From NCBI GenBank assembly GCA_012513515.1, contig JAAZCA010000036.1, forward strand, positions 9,045-73,044: DNA of 64,000 bases. The letters are read 5' to 3'. The notes below the pieces were generated by a model that was not told where the DNA came from, made no database searches, and saw only the letters and a program-made list of their open reading frames with translations. Of this stretch, positions 6,706-64,000 are shown in pieces; position 1 is the stretch's first letter; every line of letters starts with the position of its first letter. A program made the translations under genes and the position numbers. The stretch comes from Myxococcales bacterium. GTDB lineage: Bacteria; UBA10199; 2-02-FULL-44-16; JAAZCA01.

Positions 6706-7881
6706 CTATTTTTTGAGACCTATCCAAATGTCTTCGGATGGGTGATCTGCTGCTTTCGTTTTGTTATAAACTTCGATGATGGATTCCGGCGTTACATCTC
6801 TTCCTCCAAGGCCTATATGGAAGGTGAAGATATCCGGAGCCTGCGCGATGTCGTAGAAAGCGGACTTGATTTCGCTGCTCCATATTCCGCCGCAGCCATG
6901 GCTGATATTTCTGTCCAGAACGGCTATCTTTTTTATTTTCCTGCCGCCCGAGATGTTTCCAGCCGCCTCACGTAACGCATCGAACGGGAATGGGCGGAAC
7001 ATTCGAATTTTACAGATGCCAACCTTTTCTCCACGTTCGCGGAGTTGTTTTACAGCGACGCGAGCGGTGGACGTCATCGATCCGCTGGTGAGGAACACTA
7101 TTTCAGCATCATCGGCATCTATCATTTCCACGATGTCATTCGGCCTTCCAAATTTCTTTTCGAAATTTTTGGCGATATCGTTATATGTGTTTATCGCTTC
7201 ACGGTGGGCCTTTTCCATTATATAGCGGAACTCCATATAGTTGTCAGGCGCGCAAAGCGGGTTGAAGGTCATTGGCGCGCTCGTGTCGAGCTTATATTTC
7301 GGCTTGAATGGAGGAAGGAACTTATCGACCTCGCTGATGTCGGGAATCTCAACCGGTTCGTAGGTATGGGAGAGTATGAACGAATCGTAGACCACCATGA
7401 CCGGAAGATAGATCGTTTCCGCGAGCCTGAAGGCCATCAGTATGGTGTCGATGACTTCCTGATTCGTTTCACAGTATAGCTGTATCCAACCGGTGTCGCG
7501 CTGTGCAAGCGAGTCGGTCTGGTCGCTCCAGATGCTCCAGCCAGGGGCCATCGCACGGTTGACGTTGCAAAGCACTACCGGGAGCCTCCCATACGCGGCC
7601 CAGAATAAAAGCTCGTGCATTAAAGCCAGCCCTTGCGACGATGTTGCGGTAAATGCCCTTGCTCCGGCCTGCGAAGCCGCTATAGTAGCGGCCATTGCCG
7701 AATGCTCGGATTCCACTTTTATAAACTTGGCGTTGAGCTCCCCTTTTGCGCACATCTCCGAAAGCTCCTCGACTATCTGCGTCTGCGGTGTGATTGGATA
7801 TGCGGATATTACCTCTGTTCTGGCAAGCTTCACTCCGTAGGAGGTAGCGTGATTTCCCATTAGGACTTCTTTTTTTGACAT
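6706..7881 (-). CDS. porA: 2-oxoacid:ferredoxin oxidoreductase alpha subunit
   Basis: PorA/KorA-like N-terminus 'MGNHATSYGVKLARTEVISAYPITPQT'; 391 aa; adjacent to beta and gamma subunits. Confidence 0.85.
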   Translation of the reverse strand: MSKKEVLMGNHATSYGVKLARTEVISAYPITPQTQIVEELSEMCAKGELNAKFIKVESEHSAMAATIAASQAGARAFTATSSQGLALMHELLFWAAYGRLPVVLCNVNRAMAPGWSIWSDQTDSLAQRDTGWIQLYCETNQEVIDTILMAFRLAETIYLPVMVVYDSFILSHTYEPVEIPDISEVDKFLPPFKPKYKLDTSAPMTFNPLCAPDNYMEFRYIMEKAHREAINTYNDIAKNFEKKFGRPNDIVEMIDADDAEIVFLTSGSMTSTARVAVKQLRERGEKVGICKIRMFRPFPFDALREAAGNISGGRKIKKIAVLDRNISHGCGGIWSSEIKSAFYDIAQAPDIFTFHIGLGGRDVTPESIIEVYNKTKAADHPSEDIWIGLKK

Positions 7882-32852: not shown

Positions 32853-33095
32853 AAATTGGATTCGTATTTTTGTTGTCATCCCCGCATGGTTTTGGCGGGG
32901 ATCCAAAAACTGCCGTGACTTTTTCGAGGTTCGATGGTCGAAAACAGGAAGTGTTGGAACTGGATTGCTTCGCTTGGCGCTCGCAATGACGGCGAGTGTG
33001 TCATCGCGCTATGCTCACCAACGGTTTAGTGGCGGGCAATGCTGGCTCCGCCATTAATGCGTCGGCAGGTGCTCGATTTGACAGCAGCTTTTTGT

Positions 33096-33167: not shown

Positions 33168-33246
33168 CAAAAAGCTGCGCCAAATCGGGAGTTCAAACCC
33201 AGCAACGCCCACAGTAGGACAGGGAGTAGGGGTAGAAAAGTGGAAT

Positions 33247-33422: not shown

Positions 33423-33470
33423 GGGGCAGTAGCTCAGCTTAAGAGAGCACCACGTTCGTCCCGACGTCCG
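33423..33470 (+). pseudogene. tRNA-Ala-like 5' half (truncated/pseudo tRNA)
   Basis: First ~36 nt (GGGGCAGTAGCTCAGCTTAAGAGAGCACCACGTTCG) nearly identical to 5' half of downstream tRNA-Ala, then no complementary anticodon stem, T arm or acceptor 3' strand. Confidence 0.45.
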
Positions 33471-57960: not shown

Positions 57961-59136
57961 TCAGAAACGCTTGTAGTCGAAGGATATGCTCTCCGCGTTG
58001 CAGAGCCTTTTTTCGATGCAGGAGTTGCACTTTACATCCGGATCTATCTTTTCCCATACAGTTGGCGTTTCCATACAGAGATACACCTTGTGCCGCGGGA
58101 GTTTGGACAGGAGTTTTTCGTACAGCGGTCTGTATGCATCTTCGCGTATGAAGCGCAGATAGCGCATCTTTCCGTTGGAAGGGACGAATTCGCCGGTGTA
58201 TATCTTTGTGTCAGGAAATCTCCTCGATGCGATACGAGAAAGGTCTTTTGGAAAACGAAGAAGCCCTAAGCTTATCCATGATATCTGCCTAGGCTCGAGT
58301 TTTTCAAATATTTTGTCGACGACGTCGAGGTATGCTTGGATCTCCGATGTCGCATCTTTTATTATTATGATGGGATCGAAGTGAAAGCCGACCCCGTAGC
58401 CCGCCGATGACACTTTTGCCGCAGCTTCTAGCCTTTCTTCAAGCGATGAGGTGTTCCTCTCTTCGGATGCGATATAAGCCGGAGTGTTTATTGACCACGA
58501 AACCACGGTCCGGTTTCTGTGACGAAGTTCCATAAGCGAATCGACGCAAAGCGACTTTGTTTTTAGCTCCAGAATTGCATTTTTTTTTGACGCGAAGAAT
58601 GGGACTAACAGACTCGCCGACTCGGTGATCGGGTCGAGCGCTAGACTATCTCCGAGTTCGCCGGTTCCGATACGGAAGAACTTTCCTTCCTCCTTGGCCA
58701 GAAACGCTGAAACCTCAGCCAATATTTCCTCGACGTTTACGTAGACGGTGGTCCGTGGATTGTTGTACAGGTACGACTGCAGTATGCAGTAGCTGCATTC
58801 CATCGGGCATCCCGAGACGAGATCCAGAACGCGATAATTGCAGCAAAGATGTCCTTCTCCTATTCCTTGGCAGAGTTTAAAAGCCTGACCTTTGTGGGCT
58901 GTAAGAACCATCTGGTTTTTGGCGCTGGCCGCGTCGGTCGGACGTTTGAGGGTTCTCACATCATCGACGATATCTACTTCGATATCCTTGAGTTTGTTCA
59001 TGATGCGTATCGTTTGTGGATGATCGGCCACGGATGCGTCGATCCAGACGTGTTCCGGCGTGAAGGGAAACGCACTAGTTTTTATTTTTCTGGAAGGCAG
59101 CCTTCTGACCTTCGAATCATGAGCAACTGTGGACAT
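57961..59136 (-). CDS. spore photoproduct lyase (SplB)-family radical SAM protein
   Basis: CxxxCxxC motif 'GCPMECSYC'; N-terminal 'FTPEHVWIDASVADHP' like SplB N-terminus; 391 aa. Confidence 0.7.
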   Translation of the reverse strand: MSTVAHDSKVRRLPSRKIKTSAFPFTPEHVWIDASVADHPQTIRIMNKLKDIEVDIVDDVRTLKRPTDAASAKNQMVLTAHKGQAFKLCQGIGEGHLCCNYRVLDLVSGCPMECSYCILQSYLYNNPRTTVYVNVEEILAEVSAFLAKEEGKFFRIGTGELGDSLALDPITESASLLVPFFASKKNAILELKTKSLCVDSLMELRHRNRTVVSWSINTPAYIASEERNTSSLEERLEAAAKVSSAGYGVGFHFDPIIIIKDATSEIQAYLDVVDKIFEKLEPRQISWISLGLLRFPKDLSRIASRRFPDTKIYTGEFVPSNGKMRYLRFIREDAYRPLYEKLLSKLPRHKVYLCMETPTVWEKIDPDVKCNSCIEKRLCNAESISFDYKRF

Positions 59137-59200
59137 GGTTGCACCCTTACATATTAAGTATAGTTCTTGTCATGAATTTTTGTGGTCCCTGACGAAAAAA

Positions 59201-60172
59201 TCAGGCGCGATACCATTCGAAAATCTGCTGCCACTTCTGTTTTTCGAACGCATCCTGAATTTTCTTGATGACCGCGTCGAGCTCTCCGGGATGTGAGAAC
59301 TGGCATTCCAGTTTCATGTTTCTGTTTTCGAAATACGGATCGGCGACGACCCTTGCCGAATCGGGGAGTTCCAGCCCCTGAATCAACTCTGCGAGCTGAC
59401 GCTGCCTCTGAGAGAGCTGCGGCAGGCGGATACCCTTGAGGGCCTTCCTGAGCGCATTGACTTTATCGGCCGAAGGTGCGGCCGGATTGGCTACGACCTG
59501 AAGCAGCTGGTAGCGATGAAGTATTTCCTCGACCGACAGCGCATCACGAGCTGAAATCTCACGCAGAAGCGAGAGCAGCTCGTTTAGCTTATTCGTAGAA
59601 GGGCGGATGTGAGTCAAAACCGCCAAAAGCGCCTGCTGCGTGGACGGGGTGAACTCAGCTATTCTGCTGGCTGAAGAAAGCGCGATATCATTGTTTACCA
59701 CATGATTCTTGAGTGGTTCGGTGAGCGCGCCCAGAGAGAGCAACTGATGGAGTATCTTGAAACTCTGTTCTTCACCCAACAAGGGCAGGAACTGTTTCGT
59801 GAGATCTTCATCGGACATCGAATAGAACTGTTTCAGCTTTGTGAGTGCGATGCTCTTTTCGACCAGATTCAATCGGCGCGATATCGCGTTGTCGTGCAGA
59901 TTCCACAGAAATGCCTGCGTCGGCGACAGGTCGTTGTGCTCATAGAGCATCGCCGGGATAGATTGCCTCTCCAGCTCCTGCATAGCCAAAACGCGTTTGT
60001 AGCCGGTGACTATCTGGTATGTTCCCTCCGGAGTATGCCGCACAGTGATCGGCTGGATGATTCCTACCTGCTTGATCGAACGTTTCAACTCCTCGATCTT
60101 AGGGGAAAAGGTTATGCGGTAGCTGTCATCCGCAATGTTTAGACTGGAAACGTTTATGTATTGGAGTAACAT
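59201..60172 (-). CDS. ParB/Srx N-terminal domain protein (ParB-like nuclease/CTPase fold) with helical C-terminal region
   Basis: 'PITVRHTPEGTYQIVTGYKRVLAMQEL' matches ParB box (GxxRxxA-type arginine patch, one Arg replaced by Lys); immediately upstream of SPL-like gene on same strand. Confidence 0.6.
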   Translation of the reverse strand: MLLQYINVSSLNIADDSYRITFSPKIEELKRSIKQVGIIQPITVRHTPEGTYQIVTGYKRVLAMQELERQSIPAMLYEHNDLSPTQAFLWNLHDNAISRRLNLVEKSIALTKLKQFYSMSDEDLTKQFLPLLGEEQSFKILHQLLSLGALTEPLKNHVVNNDIALSSASRIAEFTPSTQQALLAVLTHIRPSTNKLNELLSLLREISARDALSVEEILHRYQLLQVVANPAAPSADKVNALRKALKGIRLPQLSQRQRQLAELIQGLELPDSARVVADPYFENRNMKLECQFSHPGELDAVIKKIQDAFEKQKWQQIFEWYRA

Positions 60173-60246
60173 GGCGGCGGATAATGGAGAAGTCCTTCCA
60201 GAATTGCAATATTAATCTTTATCCGAATCTGATTTTTTGAAAAATT

Positions 60247-60735
60247 TTGGAGGCCTCTTTGATGAAGGAAAAAAATCTCGAAGAAACTTTTATGAAAGCC
60301 GCTGTGGCACAGGCGGTGCGGGCGGGAGAATTAGACGAGGTACCAATTGGAGCGGTTGCGGTTTTGGGCAACAAAATAATAGCCAGGGCGCACAACCTTC
60401 GTGAAAAAAAACAGGATCCGCTAGGTCACGCCGAAATTTTGCTGATCGAAAAGGCGGCGAAAAAAATGAAAAGCTGGAGGCTGGATGGCGTCACCATATA
60501 TGTTACATGCGAGCCTTGTGTGATGTGTGCGGGAGCTATTTTGCAGTCGAGGGTGAAGAGGGTTGTATTTGGCTGTTTCGATCCGAAGGCGGGAGCGGTA
60601 GGTTCCCTCTTCAACCTGTCGAACGATAGAAGGCTAAATCACAGATTCGAGGTGAAAAGCGGGGTTATGGGAAAACAGTGTGCAGCTCTCCTCTCCGAAT
60701 TTTTCAGGCGGAAGCGGAAGAAAAAATGCAAATAA
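60247..60735 (+). CDS. tadA: tRNA-specific adenosine-34 deaminase
   Basis: 'HAEILLIEKAA' and 'CEPCVMCAGAI' CDA zinc motifs. Confidence 0.85.
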   Translation: MEASLMKEKNLEETFMKAAVAQAVRAGELDEVPIGAVAVLGNKIIARAHNLREKKQDPLGHAEILLIEKAAKKMKSWRLDGVTIYVTCEPCVMCAGAILQSRVKRVVFGCFDPKAGAVGSLFNLSNDRRLNHRFEVKSGVMGKQCAALLSEFFRRKRKKKCK

Positions 60736-60786
60736 CATCTCCTCTCCTCACAAAAAACCCGCGCTTTCGCACGGGTTTTTTTGTTG

Positions 60787-60873
60787 CGGAGAGGGAGGGA
60801 TTCGAACCCTCGGTACCCAGAAGGGTACAACGGTTTTCGAGACCGCCCCGTTCGACCGCTCCGGCACCTCTCC
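60787..60873 (-). tRNA. tRNA-Ser (anticodon CGA)
   Basis: Reverse complement GGAGAGG...CCTCTCCG with 3-bp D stem, anticodon loop CUCGAAA, long variable arm, T arm GAGGG-TTCGAAT-CCCTC. Confidence 0.9.
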
Positions 60874-60876
60874 AGT

Positions 60877-61246
60877 ATTTGCGTTATGCTGGCGACGACT
60901 GTAGGTCGGTGCTAGTCATTACGCAAATACTGGCCCGCCAAAGTTTTAGTGGCGGGCTCTTTCAGCAAGTTTTCAACAACTTTTCTGCCTTCGCCTGTTT
61001 TTAGAAATCGTTCACATTTCATTGCGTTATGCTGGCGACGACTGTAGGTCGGTGCTAGTCATTACGCAAATATTGGCCCGCCAAAGTTTTAGTGGCGGGC
61101 TCTTTCAGCAAGTTTTCAACAACTTTTCTGCCTTCGCCTGTTTTTAGAAATCGTTCACATTTCATTGCGTTATGCTGGCGACGACTGTAGGTCGGCGCTA
61201 GTCATTACGCAAATACTGGCCCGCCAAAGTTTTAGTGGCGGGCTCT
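60877..61246. repeat. tandem direct repeat, about 144-bp unit x 2.6 copies, each with two GC hairpins
   Basis: Unit 'ATTGCGTTATGCTGGCGACGACTGTAGGTCGGTGCTAGTCATTACGCAAATACTGGCCCGCCAAAGTTTTAGTGGCGGGCTCTTTCAGCAAG...' recurs at about 60877, 61021, 61165 with 1-2 mismatches; third copy truncated. Confidence 0.85.
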
Positions 61247-61508
61247 CCACTGAGGTTTCTGAGTCCTCGATTTAAGCACTTGATGATGACAATATTTCCG
61301 TCATTCCTGCACTGTAAGCCGCTTTCTGCGGCGGGGCAGGAATCCAGTTACGGACGTTCAACTCATAACCGCACATACCTCAACTTTCGACCTTGAAGCC
61401 GAATCCCCCTACAACAGGCAAAAAGCTTTGTCTAGATCTCATATCGGTTGTCTAAATCATGCCCCTGTAGTATCGGCCCTCTCTTAAAATTGAAGAAAGG
61501 TTGGGAAA

Positions 61509-62540
61509 ATGGAAATAGCGATAGTTGGACTCCCTCAAAGCGGGAAGAGCACTCTTTTTAAAATAATGACCGGCGTGGACAGCGGCTCGCAGCTCTCCGA
61601 GGTCGCTGTGCGCGGCGTCGCGAAGATCCCCGACGCGCGTTTTTTGAAGCTGGTGGAGATTTTCAAGCCCGCGAAGGTGACTCCTGCCTCCGTGCCGTTT
61701 GTGGATATCAACGCCCGCGGCGAGGGAGCATGGTCCGTAATAAGACAGAGAATCGGATCAGCAGATGCGATCCTACATGTCATAGATGCCTTTACCGATT
61801 CGGATACTGTGAAACTCACGGATAAGTACCAAAAACTTTCGGTGGAGATGGCGATAGCCGATCTCATAATGGTCGAAGCCCGTCTCGAAAAACTTATGAA
61901 GATCCCGGCGGCGACGCTGAAGCCTGAGGAGAAAATACACAGGGAACTTCTTCCCAAGGTGAAGGATATGCTGGAGTCGGGCGGCGGGGTGAGGGATGTC
62001 GATATGTCCGATTTCGAAAGGGACTCGCTGAAAAGCTTTTCATTTCTTACGATCAAGCCTGAGATGGTGGTCGTCAATGTAGCAGAGGGAGTTTCCGGGG
62101 TAGCCGCTCAATTCGTTTCGAAATCGCCGGTCGGTCGAAATGCCATAGAGATCTGCTGCAACATAGAGTCTGAGATCGCCGAGCTCGAACAGGCTGAGCG
62201 CGAGGAGTTTATGAAGTCGCTAGGGATCGACGAGCCTGCCTTTGCACGAATCATCAGGGAGGCCTTTTTGATGCTAGGCCGCATCTATTATTTCACCGTC
62301 GGCGAGGATGAGGTGAGGGCGTGGGTCATAAGAAAGGGCTCCACCGCGCCACAGGCGGCCGCCGCTATACACAAAGATTTCGAACGTGGTTTCATCAGGG
62401 CTGAGGTCGTCGCATACCATGACTTCATAAACACCGGCTGCGATCTTCATAAGGCCAAAGCTGCCGGCAAACAGCGACTAGAGGGAAAGGAATATATCGT
62501 CGCGGATGGTGATATTGTAAATTTCAGGTTTAATGTGTAG
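61509..62540 (+). CDS. ychF: Obg-family ribosome-binding ATPase YchF-like (divergent)
   Basis: Walker A 'GLPQSGKST', C-terminal TGS-like 'AAIHKDFERGFIRAEVVAYHDF'. Confidence 0.7.
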   Translation: MEIAIVGLPQSGKSTLFKIMTGVDSGSQLSEVAVRGVAKIPDARFLKLVEIFKPAKVTPASVPFVDINARGEGAWSVIRQRIGSADAILHVIDAFTDSDTVKLTDKYQKLSVEMAIADLIMVEARLEKLMKIPAATLKPEEKIHRELLPKVKDMLESGGGVRDVDMSDFERDSLKSFSFLTIKPEMVVVNVAEGVSGVAAQFVSKSPVGRNAIEICCNIESEIAELEQAEREEFMKSLGIDEPAFARIIREAFLMLGRIYYFTVGEDEVRAWVIRKGSTAPQAAAAIHKDFERGFIRAEVVAYHDFINTGCDLHKAKAAGKQRLEGKEYIVADGDIVNFRFNV

Positions 62541-62631
62541 AGATCAGTGGCCCTGATTTTTATCCCTCAATTGTGGCTGCCTGATCCCTTATTTCCCCTT
62601 GAAACGGGGCCGTGTGCGGAACGTACCTACT

Positions 62632-62719
62632 TGGCGGAGAGAGTGGGATTCGAACCCACGTTACCGTTAAGTAAACACGCTTTCCAAGCGTGCGCCTTCA
62701 GCCTCTCGGCCATCTCTCC
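62632..62719 (-). tRNA. tRNA-Ser (anticodon GGA), CCA encoded
   Basis: Reverse complement GGAGAGATGGCCGAGAGG...CACGC-UUGGAAA-GCGUG...GGGTTCGAATCCCAC TCTCTCC GCCA, long variable arm. Confidence 0.9.
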
Positions 62720-62800
62720 AGAAGCGGGCGCAATAGAGCATAAGGCCATTTCCAGGGCAACTCATTTTTGCATGAGCGGGGTTTCGCAGATCGCTAGATA

Positions 62801-63826
62801 TTACGGTATCTGGTTCTGCTTCGTGCTTAAGTTTTCTGCGCGCCTTGCCGATTTTTCAAGTAGTGAAAAGATGAGAGCCGATGTGAACGGGATAGCTTCG
62901 CTGAATTCCTCAAAGCTGAGCGTCCCCGATAGTATGGATGCACCGGCTTCTGCGACAAACTCTCCCCAGTCTTGGCTGTAATAGCAGGATTTCGTCAGTC
63001 TTTCTAGTGTTACGAATTCCTTTTCGCCCCCGGACTTTATGGCCAGCATTGCCGCGACCCAGCCTTCAGATCTTTCACCTCCATGAAGCGAGTGACACAT
63101 CTCATGAAGAAATATTGGGAAGACTTCTCCATATTTCCTGTCGAATTCGAAGAGGCGCACGAGGTTTTTGGAGCTGCAAAATATTCCCCCTACGTCTGAG
63201 AGGGTACTGAATCCGTAATACGTTGAAGTATTGGGATAGATTTCTATTCGTTTTACGCTGCTGAAAAGTGCGATGGGGCTTTTTGACATCATCCTCACTA
63301 TTCTCGATCGTCTTGCTACAAATGATTTTCTTTCATCTGCCACAACTTGAAGAGTGATCTTCCTTTTAAATTCGGGGGTGAAGATGTCTATGGCCTGAGT
63401 GAAGATTCTTTCTGCAACAAGGTTTGCGCCTATTTCATTGATCTCCGATGTCGCCGGTATTGGGTGCCGGACTGTCGGAGTTTTTAAAGAGGCTGGATTG
63501 ATTTGCGCGTAAAAGTGTGTTTTAAAGAAATTCCTGATTTCATCGGTGGATGCCTCCCGCCATCTCCTGTTCGGGAGGGATTTGTGGAGTTTGATATTCC
63601 TGTGATCTCCGGATCCGTTTAATTCGAAATCTCCGTAGTTGGTCGGCTCCGAGATCGGGTTTATGAAAAAATCCGTGTTTCCAATTCGTATCGGATACTG
63701 CCTGTACATCTTTCCAAATTTATCGGTTATCACTCCTATGGAGGGATAACTCCTTCTTGTCAAAGGGGCAACCTTTTCGCCTTTTGGAACTGCGAAGAGA
63801 AAGCGTTCGCTGCTGTTGAGGTCCAT
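62801..63826 (-). CDS. hypothetical protein with HExxH zinc-metallopeptidase-like motif
   Basis: 'FLHEMCHSLHGGERSEGW' motif; no further family recognised. Confidence 0.4.
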   Translation of the reverse strand: MDLNSSERFLFAVPKGEKVAPLTRRSYPSIGVITDKFGKMYRQYPIRIGNTDFFINPISEPTNYGDFELNGSGDHRNIKLHKSLPNRRWREASTDEIRNFFKTHFYAQINPASLKTPTVRHPIPATSEINEIGANLVAERIFTQAIDIFTPEFKRKITLQVVADERKSFVARRSRIVRMMSKSPIALFSSVKRIEIYPNTSTYYGFSTLSDVGGIFCSSKNLVRLFEFDRKYGEVFPIFLHEMCHSLHGGERSEGWVAAMLAIKSGGEKEFVTLERLTKSCYYSQDWGEFVAEAGASILSGTLSFEEFSEAIPFTSALIFSLLEKSARRAENLSTKQNQIP

Positions 63827-64000
63827 GAGAAAATGCGGATTGGCATTTTCACCTTCGCTTTCGATTATCTCCGCTGTATCGGCCTTGTGCGCTTCGTAGG
63901 CTCTTCCTTCGTACGCTATGAATCTGATGTCGGTCAGGTCGGCGTTTTCTATCCTGACAGGGGTGTTTCCTTTTTCATCGATTTGGAAGGCGAAGTAGCC

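What the first reader, a model, noticed from the sequence alone, without database searches (positions are those of the whole stretch)
60874..61250. Tandem array of a ~144-bp hairpin-containing unit immediately 5' of tRNA-Ser(CGA)
About 2.6 near-identical direct copies with 1-2 substitutions per copy abut the 5' end of the minus-strand tRNA-Ser. Each unit contains an imperfect palindrome (TTTGCGTTATG...CATTACGCAAA) and a perfect 8-bp GC hairpin (GGCCCGCCA-aagttttag-TGGCGGGC). It is not a CRISPR, because the units are contiguous with no spacers. It could be a duplicated tRNA promoter/leader, a satellite-like MITE remnant, or tandemly repeated sRNA or protein-binding sites. A tandem duplication this recent is rare in a compact genome.
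Basis: seen in the sequence. Interest (0 to 1): 0.55.

Follow-up and report, generated by a model that had tools for sequence, protein, structure and literature searches.

The report
Decaying duplication beside a tRNA gene
The 143-bp tandem repeat next to the serine tRNA gene is real and varies in copy number between strains. It is the shrunken, re-amplified remnant of an older duplication that in a sister species still holds a small nuclease gene, so it is ordinary genome decay, with one conserved double-hairpin piece of unknown role.

Summary
Window 60879-61246 holds 2.6 copies of a 143-bp unit (not 144), with only two substitutions, abutting the 5' end of the minus-strand tRNA-Ser(CGA). The layout is A-B-A-B-A. 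A is an 81-nt double hairpin and B is 62 nt.

Independent metagenome assemblies reproduce the same order of copy-specific SNPs, so it is not an artefact. A second haplotype carries A-B-A in 7 of 7 spanning assemblies, so copy number truly varies.

A sister-species contig (L116) explains the origin. There A occurs twice, 458 nt apart. B is the 3' end of a 76-aa GIY-YIG nuclease ORF, and the second A is preceded by 23-24 nt of the tRNA's 5' end. The window's B|A junction matches a 316-nt deletion between TTGC microhomologies. So the unit is the tRNA-proximal hairpin element plus a nuclease-gene stub, later amplified by unequal crossover.

A shows structural constraint: 5 of 66 paired against 8 of 25 unpaired columns differ between species (p=0.006), with one compensatory pair.

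I found no Rfam match, no conserved promoter, and no other copy in the DNA available. It is a locus-specific VNTR from a decaying duplication. Interest is low to moderate.

The parts
60262..60735 (+). tadA (tRNA adenosine deaminase), the upstream neighbour
   Evidence: ORF. Pfam dCMP_cyt_deam_1 on the called gene of identical contigs. Homologues are named TadA.
60752..60781 (.). Bidirectional intrinsic terminator shared by tadA (+) and tRNA-Ser(CGA) (-)
   Evidence: Inverted repeat I6, AAAAAACCCGCGC/GCACGGGTTTTTT, with A/T runs on both sides. It is 94% conserved in the sister species.
60786..60873 (-). tRNA-Ser(CGA); its 5' end abuts the array
   Evidence: ARAGORN. Rfam tRNA 55.8 bits. 96.6% identical in sister species L116.
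60873..60932 (.). Hairpin 1, full-length version (copy 1 only). The reported inverted repeat has 17-nt arms starting at 60872; in the predicted fold the stem starts at C60873, the tRNA's first base
   Evidence: I1; folds. The outer-stem pair changes T-A to G-C in the sister species.
60933..60957 (.). Hairpin 2, copy 1: 8-bp GC stem GCCCGCCA/TGGCGGGC with a 9-nt loop
   Evidence: All 8 pairs are invariant in 6 copies from 2 species, and 3 of the 9 loop bases differ between species.
60879..60959 (.). A1: repeat segment A (hairpin 1 core plus hairpin 2)
   Evidence: Orthologous to L116 6825-6905.
60960..61021 (-). B1: 62-nt stub of the 3' end of a GIY-YIG nuclease gene (pseudogene fragment)
   Evidence: Exact repeat. 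It lies inside the 289-nt window stretch (290-column alignment) that is 89% identical to L116 6683-6970, where it overlaps the GIY-YIG ORF 6911-7141. Its translation AMKCERFLKTGEGRKVVENLLK aligns to residues 58-75 of that ORF. Appending it to the sister N-terminus adds 8.8 bits to the Pfam GIY-YIG score.
61022..61102 (.). A2: lacks the outer 7 bp of hairpin 1; private SNP T at 61073
61103..61164 (-). B2: second, identical GIY-YIG stub
61165..61246 (.). A3: the last copy. It carries C at 61196, the state seen in the sister species
61247..61384 (.). Lineage-specific spacer after the array. It contains a hairpin at 61303-61343 and is not alignable to the sister species
   Evidence: Overall folding is not better than shuffles.
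61385..61508 (.). Conserved distal spacer and the ychF upstream region
   Evidence: blastn to L113 41-104 and 1411 onward, and to L116 7391-7449 and 8745 onward.
61509..62540 (+). ychF, divergent from the tRNA
   Evidence: ORF. Pfam YchF-GTPase_C.

Best explanation
The array is a locus-specific, strain-variable minisatellite. It is the latest stage of a decaying segmental duplication, not a purpose-built repeat system.

Inferred history:
1. An ancestor of this genus carried a roughly 458-bp duplication just 5' of tRNA-Ser(CGA). The duplicated segment ran from 23-24 nt inside the tRNA's 5' end, through an ~87-nt double-hairpin element (A), into a small GIY-YIG nuclease gene on the tRNA's strand.
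2. In the window's lineage, a 316-nt deletion between two TTGC microhomologies removed most of the nuclease gene, its upstream spacer and the partial tRNA. This left tRNA-A-B-A, where B is the 62-nt 3' stub of the gene. One haplotype still has this state.
3. Unequal crossover (or replication slippage) between the near-identical A copies then added one A-B unit, giving the A-B-A-B-A seen here.

B and the extra copies are most likely functionless by-products. The only part under constraint is A, whose two stems are preserved between species while the loops change. I infer that A1 acts in cis at the tRNA's 5' flank, as a folded RNA or single-stranded-DNA hairpin pair at the boundary between the upstream (nuclease) transcription unit and the tRNA. 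This could be a 3'-end, stability or processing structure, or a protein-binding palindrome. It is probably neither a canonical promoter nor a canonical terminator.

Shown here: the anatomy, the copy-number variation, the orthology, the deletion junction, and the stem-versus-loop substitution bias. Inferred: the order of events, concerted evolution of the A copies, and any role for A.
For: Repeat and anatomy.

Reality of the array: the same copy-specific SNP order (GTC, GTT, GCC at unit offsets 10, 32, 52) appears in the window, in L005/L100 and in L098. The partial contigs L007 and L008 agree.

True copy-number difference: the haplotype with YchF V43 and two private SNPs in the spacer has A-B-A, with its own SNP in the last copy, in 7 of 7 spanning assemblies.

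Sister species L116:
- Window 60737-61025 matches L116 6683-6970 at 89% (E 5e-104).
- Window 60850-60976 matches L116 7254-7380 at 87%, so this second copy includes the last 24 nt of the tRNA's 5' part (21 of 23 positions match the tRNA within L116).
- The two A copies start 458 nt apart, and TRF finds no tandem repeat.
- The ORF between them (6911-7141, minus strand) matches Pfam GIY-YIG at E 2e-15.

Deletion junction: L116 has ..CATTGC|AAGATCG at 6970/6971 and ..ATTTGC|GTTATGC at 7286/7287, against CATTGC|GTTATGC in the window. 458 - 316 = 142, plus a 1-nt indel in B, gives 143.

Stub: it adds 8.8 bits to the GIY-YIG match, extending it to model positions 60-70.

Constraint on A:
- Between species, 5 of 66 paired columns differ against 8 of 25 unpaired (Fisher p=0.006).
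- Hairpin 2 has 8 of 8 pairs invariant with 3 loop changes.
- One pair changes on both sides.
- RNAalifold independently recovers both hairpins.
Against: - Only one sister-species contig shows the ancestral-like layout, and it comes from an indel-prone assembly with split ychF and parB genes.
- Within each species the A copies are far more alike (about 98-99%) than A is between species (85%). The shared-duplication model therefore needs gene conversion. Independent duplications in each lineage are not excluded.
- Three assemblies of the window's own haplotype show 2 A, and one MAG shows 1 A. These may be short-read collapse rather than real variation.
- The role proposed for A is untested.
- The strand on which A would fold is unresolved. 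Five wobble-preserving changes favour the + strand and one favours the - strand, which is not significant.
- The whole genome could not be searched for other copies, because the organism is absent from the scannable collections.
Confidence: 0.65

Rival explanations
1. The array is functional. Each unit would be a module, either an sRNA gene or a tRNA promoter with its leader, and amplification would raise dosage. The known analogues, cited from memory, are the tandem NsiR1 sRNA array of Anabaena and the tandem P1/P2 promoters of E. coli rRNA operons.
For: A folds far better than shuffles, and its stems are conserved between species with one compensatory pair. Five of six wobble-type changes keep pairing on the + strand. 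A weak sigma-70-like site (TTGCGT-17-TACAGT) lies in each A on the tRNA's strand, with its -10 box ending 24 nt before the tRNA.
Against: - The consensus scan finds no promoter or terminator in 60600-61600.
- The 7-of-12 site is at chance level, and its -10 box sits in the variable loop: it reads CATGGT or CACGGT in the sister species.
- Hairpin 2 lacks the U-run that this organism's real terminator has.
- The inter-A segment is a gene stub, not a promoter.
- Copies 2 and 3 have lost the outer stem.
- The sister species has no tandem array.
- No Rfam family matches.
Confidence: 0.15
2. A, or A together with the GIY-YIG gene, is part of a mobile or integrative cassette that targets the 5' flank of tRNA-Ser(CGA). 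The direct repeats would then be attachment or target duplications, and the array a remnant of repeated insertion. The analogues would be MITE or REP/BIME elements, or a free-standing homing endonuclease.
For: In the sister species a ~127-nt direct repeat that includes 23-24 nt of the tRNA flanks a GIY-YIG nuclease ORF. That ORF has a weak, below-cutoff match to group I intron endonucleases. The neighbourhood carries other insertion scars. A 17-nt tRNA-Ser 3' fragment sits next to tadA in L116 and L114. L114 also has an extra glycosyltransferase gene between tadA and that fragment. A 358-aa gene is flanked by ~20-nt repeats in L113 and L116.
Against: - No other copy of A or B is found in the 64-kb window, by blastn-short, nhmmer or the covariance model, or in 0.74 Mb of loci.
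- The viral, genome and metagenome pattern scans return zero hits, although the organism itself is missing from those collections.
- No integrase or transposase lies nearby.
- The segment between the repeats is only 328 nt.
- A plain 458-bp tandem duplication followed by decay explains the same layout.
Confidence: 0.12
3. The array is an assembly artefact: copies were expanded or collapsed by a short-read assembler.
For: Assemblies of the same haplotype give 3, 2 or 1 A copies. Several contigs break inside the array (L006-L010, L109-L112).
Against: Three fully spanning assemblies from different samples and assemblers share the identical order of copy-specific SNPs, and two partial contigs agree. 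The second haplotype has a distinct 2-copy array with a private SNP in 7 of 7 spanning assemblies. The sister species also carries two A copies.
Confidence: 0.03

Closest known systems
Bacterial intergenic VNTR/minisatellite loci, such as MIRU-VNTR of Mycobacterium tuberculosis and the 100-130-bp 'ms' loci of Pseudomonas aeruginosa used for MLVA typing (from my own knowledge)
   Same: Head-to-tail repeats with a unit above 100 bp in an intergenic region. Copies are near-identical, copy number differs between strains, and expansion and contraction occur by unequal recombination or slippage.
   Different: It is not a member of a dispersed repeat family; as far as could be tested it is unique to this locus. 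Its origin can be traced: the unit is a tRNA-flank hairpin element fused to a nuclease-gene stub.
The 178-bp repeats (about 3 copies) distal to tRNA-Tyr in the E. coli tyrT operon (from my own knowledge; Rossi, Egan, Landy and colleagues, about 1980)
   Same: A tandem array of units above 100 bp directly adjoining a tRNA gene. It arose by duplication that took in a piece of the tRNA; here the sister species' second copy carries 23-24 nt of the tRNA.
   Different: The tyrT repeats lie 3' of the tRNA, contain its 3' end and encode the small Tpr protein. Here the array lies 5' of the tRNA, the tRNA piece has been deleted in the window, and the only ORF in the unit (36 aa) has no homologues.
Tandem sRNA arrays such as NsiR1 in Anabaena, and type III antitoxin repeats such as ToxI (from my own knowledge)
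   Same: Contiguous repeats, each holding a stable hairpin.
   Different: In those systems each unit has its own promoter or processing site and a partner gene. No promoter, terminator or partner gene was found here. ToxI-type units are about 36 nt, not 143.
REP/BIME clusters of enterobacteria (from my own knowledge)
   Same: Alternating hairpins and linkers repeated in tandem between genes.
   Different: BIMEs are built from one REP family in alternating orientation and occur at hundreds of sites. Here the two hairpins are unrelated to each other, and no other copy was found.

Membership tests
Bacterial VNTR / minisatellite | Head-to-tail direct repeats of a unit of tens to hundreds of bp | tested here: met
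   TRF gives period 143, 2.6 copies, 98% matches and no indels.
Bacterial VNTR / minisatellite | Copy number differs between strains of one species | tested here: met
   Haplotype 1 has 3 A in three spanning assemblies. Haplotype 2 (YchF A43V) has 2 A in 7 of 7 spanning assemblies, with private SNPs.
CRISPR array | Short repeats separated by unique spacers, with a leader and usually cas genes | tested here: not met
   The two inter-A segments are 100% identical. The repeat is 81 nt. None of the called neighbouring genes has a Pfam hit to a Cas-associated family.
Dispersed palindromic repeat families (REP/BIME, MITE, ERIC-like) | Many copies scattered over the genome | tested here: inconclusive
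   No other copy is found in the 64-kb window or in 0.74 Mb of loci.
Tandem sRNA gene array (NsiR1-like) | Each unit carries its own promoter and terminator and yields a discrete transcript | tested here: inconclusive
   No consensus promoter or terminator is found. The best 7-of-12 site is not conserved. Transcription cannot be tested here.
Known structured RNA families (Rfam 15) | Match to a curated covariance model | tested here: not met
   The only matches up to E=1 in 58000-64000 are the two tRNAs and matches lying over the tRNA genes and terminator. Nothing falls on A beyond a 14-nt overhang of a sub-threshold tRNA-driven match, and nothing on B.
tRNA-targeting integrative element (attL/attR) | Direct repeats containing a tRNA end, flanking an element that encodes an integrase | tested here: not met
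   The sister species' repeat does contain 23-24 nt of the tRNA's 5' end. However, only 328 nt with a 76-aa GIY-YIG ORF lies between the repeats, and no integrase is nearby.
GIY-YIG nuclease gene (segment B as a remnant) | Sequence homologous to a GIY-YIG catalytic-domain ORF | tested here: met
   B lies in a contiguous 89% alignment with L116, where it overlaps an ORF matching PF01541 at E 2e-15. Appending the window stub raises the Pfam score of the N-terminal 57 aa from 45.4 to 54.2 bits. Searched alone, the stub finds nothing.

The most novel reading that the evidence does not exclude
Element A (hairpin 1 plus hairpin 2) could be an undescribed conserved structured element tied to tRNA-Ser(CGA). 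One possibility is a cis-acting RNA, or a single-strand-DNA hairpin pair folding on the + strand. Another is that A is the recognition or target module of a small GIY-YIG cassette that inserts at the tRNA's 5' flank and duplicates it. In that case the array would record repeated activity of a new kind of tRNA-flank-targeting selfish element.
Probability: 0.1. Interest if true: 0.55.

Novelty: new member of a known kind. Interest (0 to 1): 0.25.

Why it matters
In itself it matters little. It is a clean, traceable example of how a bacterial minisatellite is born: segmental duplication, then microhomology-mediated deletion, then unequal crossover.

It has three practical consequences:
- It breaks or collapses short-read assemblies of this uncultured lineage. 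Contigs end inside it, and MAGs report 1 to 3 copies.
- It could serve as a strain marker.
- The 36-aa ORF that gene callers predict in it is a gene fragment, not a gene.

The one open point of biological interest is the conserved double hairpin directly abutting a tRNA 5' end. Its stems are under constraint and its function is unknown.

Tried and rejected
- **Rfam at a permissive threshold:** nothing on the unit itself, only matches driven by the adjacent tRNA gene and terminator.
- **Exact-pattern scans for A:** Metagenome contigs, genome contigs and viral contigs returned zero hits, not even the locus itself, so these collections lack the organism.
- **YchF relatives:** GTDB genomes reach at most 57% identity (best hit 59%), and the next-best hit in the 5.8-billion-protein set is 62%. 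Synteny is not conserved, so these were useless for comparison.
- **The route that worked:** members of the 90% clusters of YchF and TadA led to a second haplotype and a sister species.
- **Minus-strand 36-aa ORF:** it has no homologues beyond itself in two very large protein searches and no Pfam hit, so I rejected it as a gene.
- **Promoter hypothesis:** the tool's consensus scan found none. My own relaxed scan found TTGCGT-17-TACAGT in A, but its -10 box is not conserved.
- **Hairpin 2 as a terminator:** it lacks a U-run on either strand, unlike the true terminator at 60752-60781.
- **A-like hit upstream of tRNA-Val (32973-33042):** nhmmer E 0.4, covariance model E 0.52, one shared 13-mer. 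I judged it chance.
- **Strand of folding:** 5 against 1 wobble-compatible changes favour the + strand, which is not significant.
- **Other readings considered by inspection:** integron attC (no R'/R'' core motifs), retron, DGR and type III toxin-antitoxin were all rejected, since there are no partner genes nearby.
- **Literature searches:** tandem repeats at tRNA genes and GIY-YIG genes near tRNAs gave nothing useful, and one search timed out.

Full report
**1. Observation**

The repeat is there. Tandem Repeats Finder reports 60879-61246 with period 143, 2.6 copies, 98% matches and no indels. The repeat finder puts the copies at 60879, 61022 and 61165. tRNA-Ser(CGA) is at 60786-60873 on the minus strand, so the array begins 5 nt from the tRNA's 5' end.

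The unit divides naturally into two segments:
- A is 81 nt: hairpin 1 (TTGCGTTATG...CATTACGCAA) directly followed by the GC hairpin GCCCGCCA-9 nt-TGGCGGGC.
- B is 62 nt.

The layout is A1-B-A2-B-A3. The two B copies are identical. The A copies differ at just two positions: 61073 is T in copy 2, and 61196 is C in copy 3.

Only A1 has the long form of hairpin 1. Its 17-nt arms take in the tRNA's first two bases, C60872 and C60873. A folds much better than shuffled sequence: RNA z = -5.9 on the + strand and -5.1 on the - strand, and DNA z = -8.8. The 262 nt between the array and ychF do not fold better than shuffles.

**2. Setting**

The order of features is:
- tadA (+);
- a bidirectional terminator at 60752-60781;
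- tRNA-Ser(CGA) (-);
- the array;
- a 262-nt spacer;
- ychF (+, 61509-62540);
- tRNA-Ser(GGA) (-).

No Rfam family matches the unit itself; the only overlaps come from matches driven by the adjacent tRNA gene and terminator. The consensus scan finds no promoter or terminator. No other copy of A or B exists in the 64-kb window.

**3. Is it an artefact, and does copy number vary?**

The window's YchF protein is encoded on 23 public contigs. Spanning contigs from different samples and assemblers (L005/L100 and L098) show the same three A copies, with the same order of copy-specific SNPs. The partial contigs L007 and L008 agree. Many contigs end inside the array, which is what a real repeat does to short-read assemblies.

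A second haplotype carries YchF A43V and two private SNPs in the spacer. It has A-B-A, with its own SNP (G10>A) in the last copy, in 7 of 7 spanning assemblies. So the array is real and its copy number truly differs between strains. The 2-copy and 1-copy contigs of the window's own haplotype (L001, L003, L004, L002) may be either real variants or collapses.

**4. Where it came from**

The lineage is isolated. The next YchF is 62% identical and not syntenic. However, the 90% clusters of YchF and TadA hold a sister species at about 86-90% nucleotide identity. Its 60-kb contig L116 carries the orthologous locus, in this order:
- tadA;
- terminator;
- tRNA-Ser(CGA), 6732-6819, minus strand;
- A1, from 6820;
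- a 76-aa ORF on the minus strand, 6911-7141, which matches Pfam GIY-YIG at E 2e-15;
- about 110 nt of spacer;
- 23-24 nt of the tRNA's 5' end;
- A2, from 7278;
- about 26 nt;
- the sequence orthologous to window 61385-61444.

Two alignments tie the window to this contig. Window 60737-61025 aligns to L116 6683-6970 at 89% (E 5e-104). Window 60850-60976 aligns to L116 7254-7380 at 87%.

So B is orthologous to the 3' end of the GIY-YIG ORF. Its translation AMKCERFLKTGEGRKVVENLLK matches residues 58-75. Appending it to the sister N-terminus raises the Pfam score from 45.4 to 54.2 bits and extends the match to model positions 60-70.

In L116 the two A copies are 458 nt apart, and there is no tandem repeat.

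The window's B|A junction reads CATTGC|GTTATGC. It is what results from deleting L116 6971-7286 (316 nt) between two TTGC microhomologies. 458 - 316 = 142, and a 1-nt indel in B brings this to 143.

The simplest history, which is inference, has three steps:
1. A ~458-bp duplication, with one breakpoint inside the tRNA.
2. Decay of the copies: the distal nuclease gene is truncated in the sister species, and the proximal one is deleted in the window's lineage.
3. One unequal crossover between A copies in the window's haplotype.

**5. What is constrained?**

Between species, identity is 96.6% for the tRNA, 94% for the terminator, 85% for A and 75% for B. Within A the differences avoid the stems: 5 of 66 paired columns differ against 8 of 25 unpaired (Fisher one-sided p = 0.006).

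- Hairpin 2 keeps all 8 pairs while 3 of its 9 loop bases change.
- The outer stem of hairpin 1 shows one compensatory change, T-A to G-C.
- The other stem changes are wobble-type.
- RNAalifold recovers both hairpins independently.

Five wobble-type changes keep pairing on the + strand and one on the - strand. That is suggestive only.

The A copies within a species are about 98-99% alike, against 85% between species. This implies either gene conversion or independent duplications.

A covariance model of A finds no further instance in the window plus 88 loci, 0.74 Mb in total.

**6. Mechanism**

*Shown:* the array expands and contracts between strains, and its unit is a hairpin element plus a gene stub.

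*Inferred:* B and the extra A copies do nothing. A1 is a cis element at the tRNA's 5' flank.

A is unlikely to be a canonical promoter. The only suitably placed sigma-70-like site scores 7 of 12, and its -10 box lies in the variable loop. A is also unlikely to be a canonical terminator, because neither strand has a U-run after hairpin 2, unlike the genuine terminator at 60752-60781. Its position is just after the nuclease gene's stop and immediately before the tRNA. That suggests a 3'-end, stability or processing structure, or a protein-binding palindrome. This part is a guess, at roughly one in three.

**7. Rivals**

- A functional tandem sRNA or promoter array: confidence 0.15.
- A mobile or integrative GIY-YIG cassette targeting the tRNA flank: 0.12.
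- An assembly artefact: 0.03.

Evidence for and against each is given in the rival entries.

**8. Comparison and verdict**

It meets the definition of a bacterial VNTR/minisatellite. It fails the tests for CRISPR, for known Rfam families and for att-flanked integrative elements. Tests for a dispersed repeat family and for an sRNA array are inconclusive.

The nearest classical parallel is the set of 178-bp repeats next to E. coli tyrT (from memory).

Novelty: a new member of a known kind. Interest is low to moderate (0.25). The open question is the conserved double hairpin.

Noticed in passing
window 33169-33225 and 33424-33470: There are pseudo-tRNA fragments in the tRNA-Val/Arg/Ala cluster. 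A partial repeat of the tRNA-Val 3' end lies just after the gene. A truncated tRNA-Ala-like 5' half (GGGGCAGTAGCTCAGCTTAAGAGAGCACCACGTTCG) lies about 130 nt upstream of the real tRNA-Ala. These are local duplication or integration scars, like the one studied here.
   Followed up: no
L116 6577-6596, L115 contig end, L114 4933-4955: In the sister species a 17-nt fragment of the tRNA-Ser(CGA) 3' end (TGCGGAGAGGGAGGGATT) sits between tadA and the intact tRNA. In L114 a 707-aa Glyco_transf_20 gene lies between tadA and that fragment. This looks like an att-type scar of an element integrated at the tRNA's 3' end.
   Followed up: partly
window 61428-61458; L113 85-104 and about 1408-1440: The short direct repeat TTGTCTAGATC / TTGTCTAAATC upstream of ychF marks the spot where the sister species carries a 1.3-kb insert with a 358-aa gene on the minus strand. 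That insert is flanked by ~20-nt repeats of the same sequence.
   Followed up: partly
window 60912-61022 and 61055-61165 (minus strand): Gene callers predict a 36-aa 'hypothetical protein' here (P0121, JGI). It is a fragment of the GIY-YIG gene reading on into hairpin 2, not a gene.
   Followed up: yes
window 61303-61343: A hairpin (ATTCCTGC ... GCCGC-TTTCT-GCGGC ... GCAGGAAT) lies in the lineage-specific 138-nt spacer between the array and the conserved ychF upstream region. It has no counterpart in the sister species.
   Followed up: no
window 57961-60172 (minus strand): A radical-SAM gene of the spore-photoproduct-lyase family (Pfam SPL) sits next to a ParB_N-domain gene, just upstream of tadA. 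This unusual pairing is conserved in both haplotypes and in the sister species.
   Followed up: no
window 32973-33042: There is a weak A-like match upstream of tRNA-Val (nhmmer E 0.4, covariance model E 0.52), driven by a shared 13-mer TTTAGTGGCGGGC. It is probably chance.
   Followed up: partly
whole window / ychF 61509-62540: The lineage is poorly represented in public data. Apart from two haplotypes and one sister species, the closest YchF among 5.8 billion proteins is 62% identical. NCBI labels the source MAGs only as 'bacterium' or 'Myxococcales bacterium'.
   Followed up: partly
window 60786 and 62632 (3' ends of the two tRNA-Ser genes): tRNA-Ser(GGA) encodes its 3' CCA. tRNA-Ser(CGA) does not: after the discriminator base it runs into CAACAAAAAAA and the terminator.
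   Followed up: no
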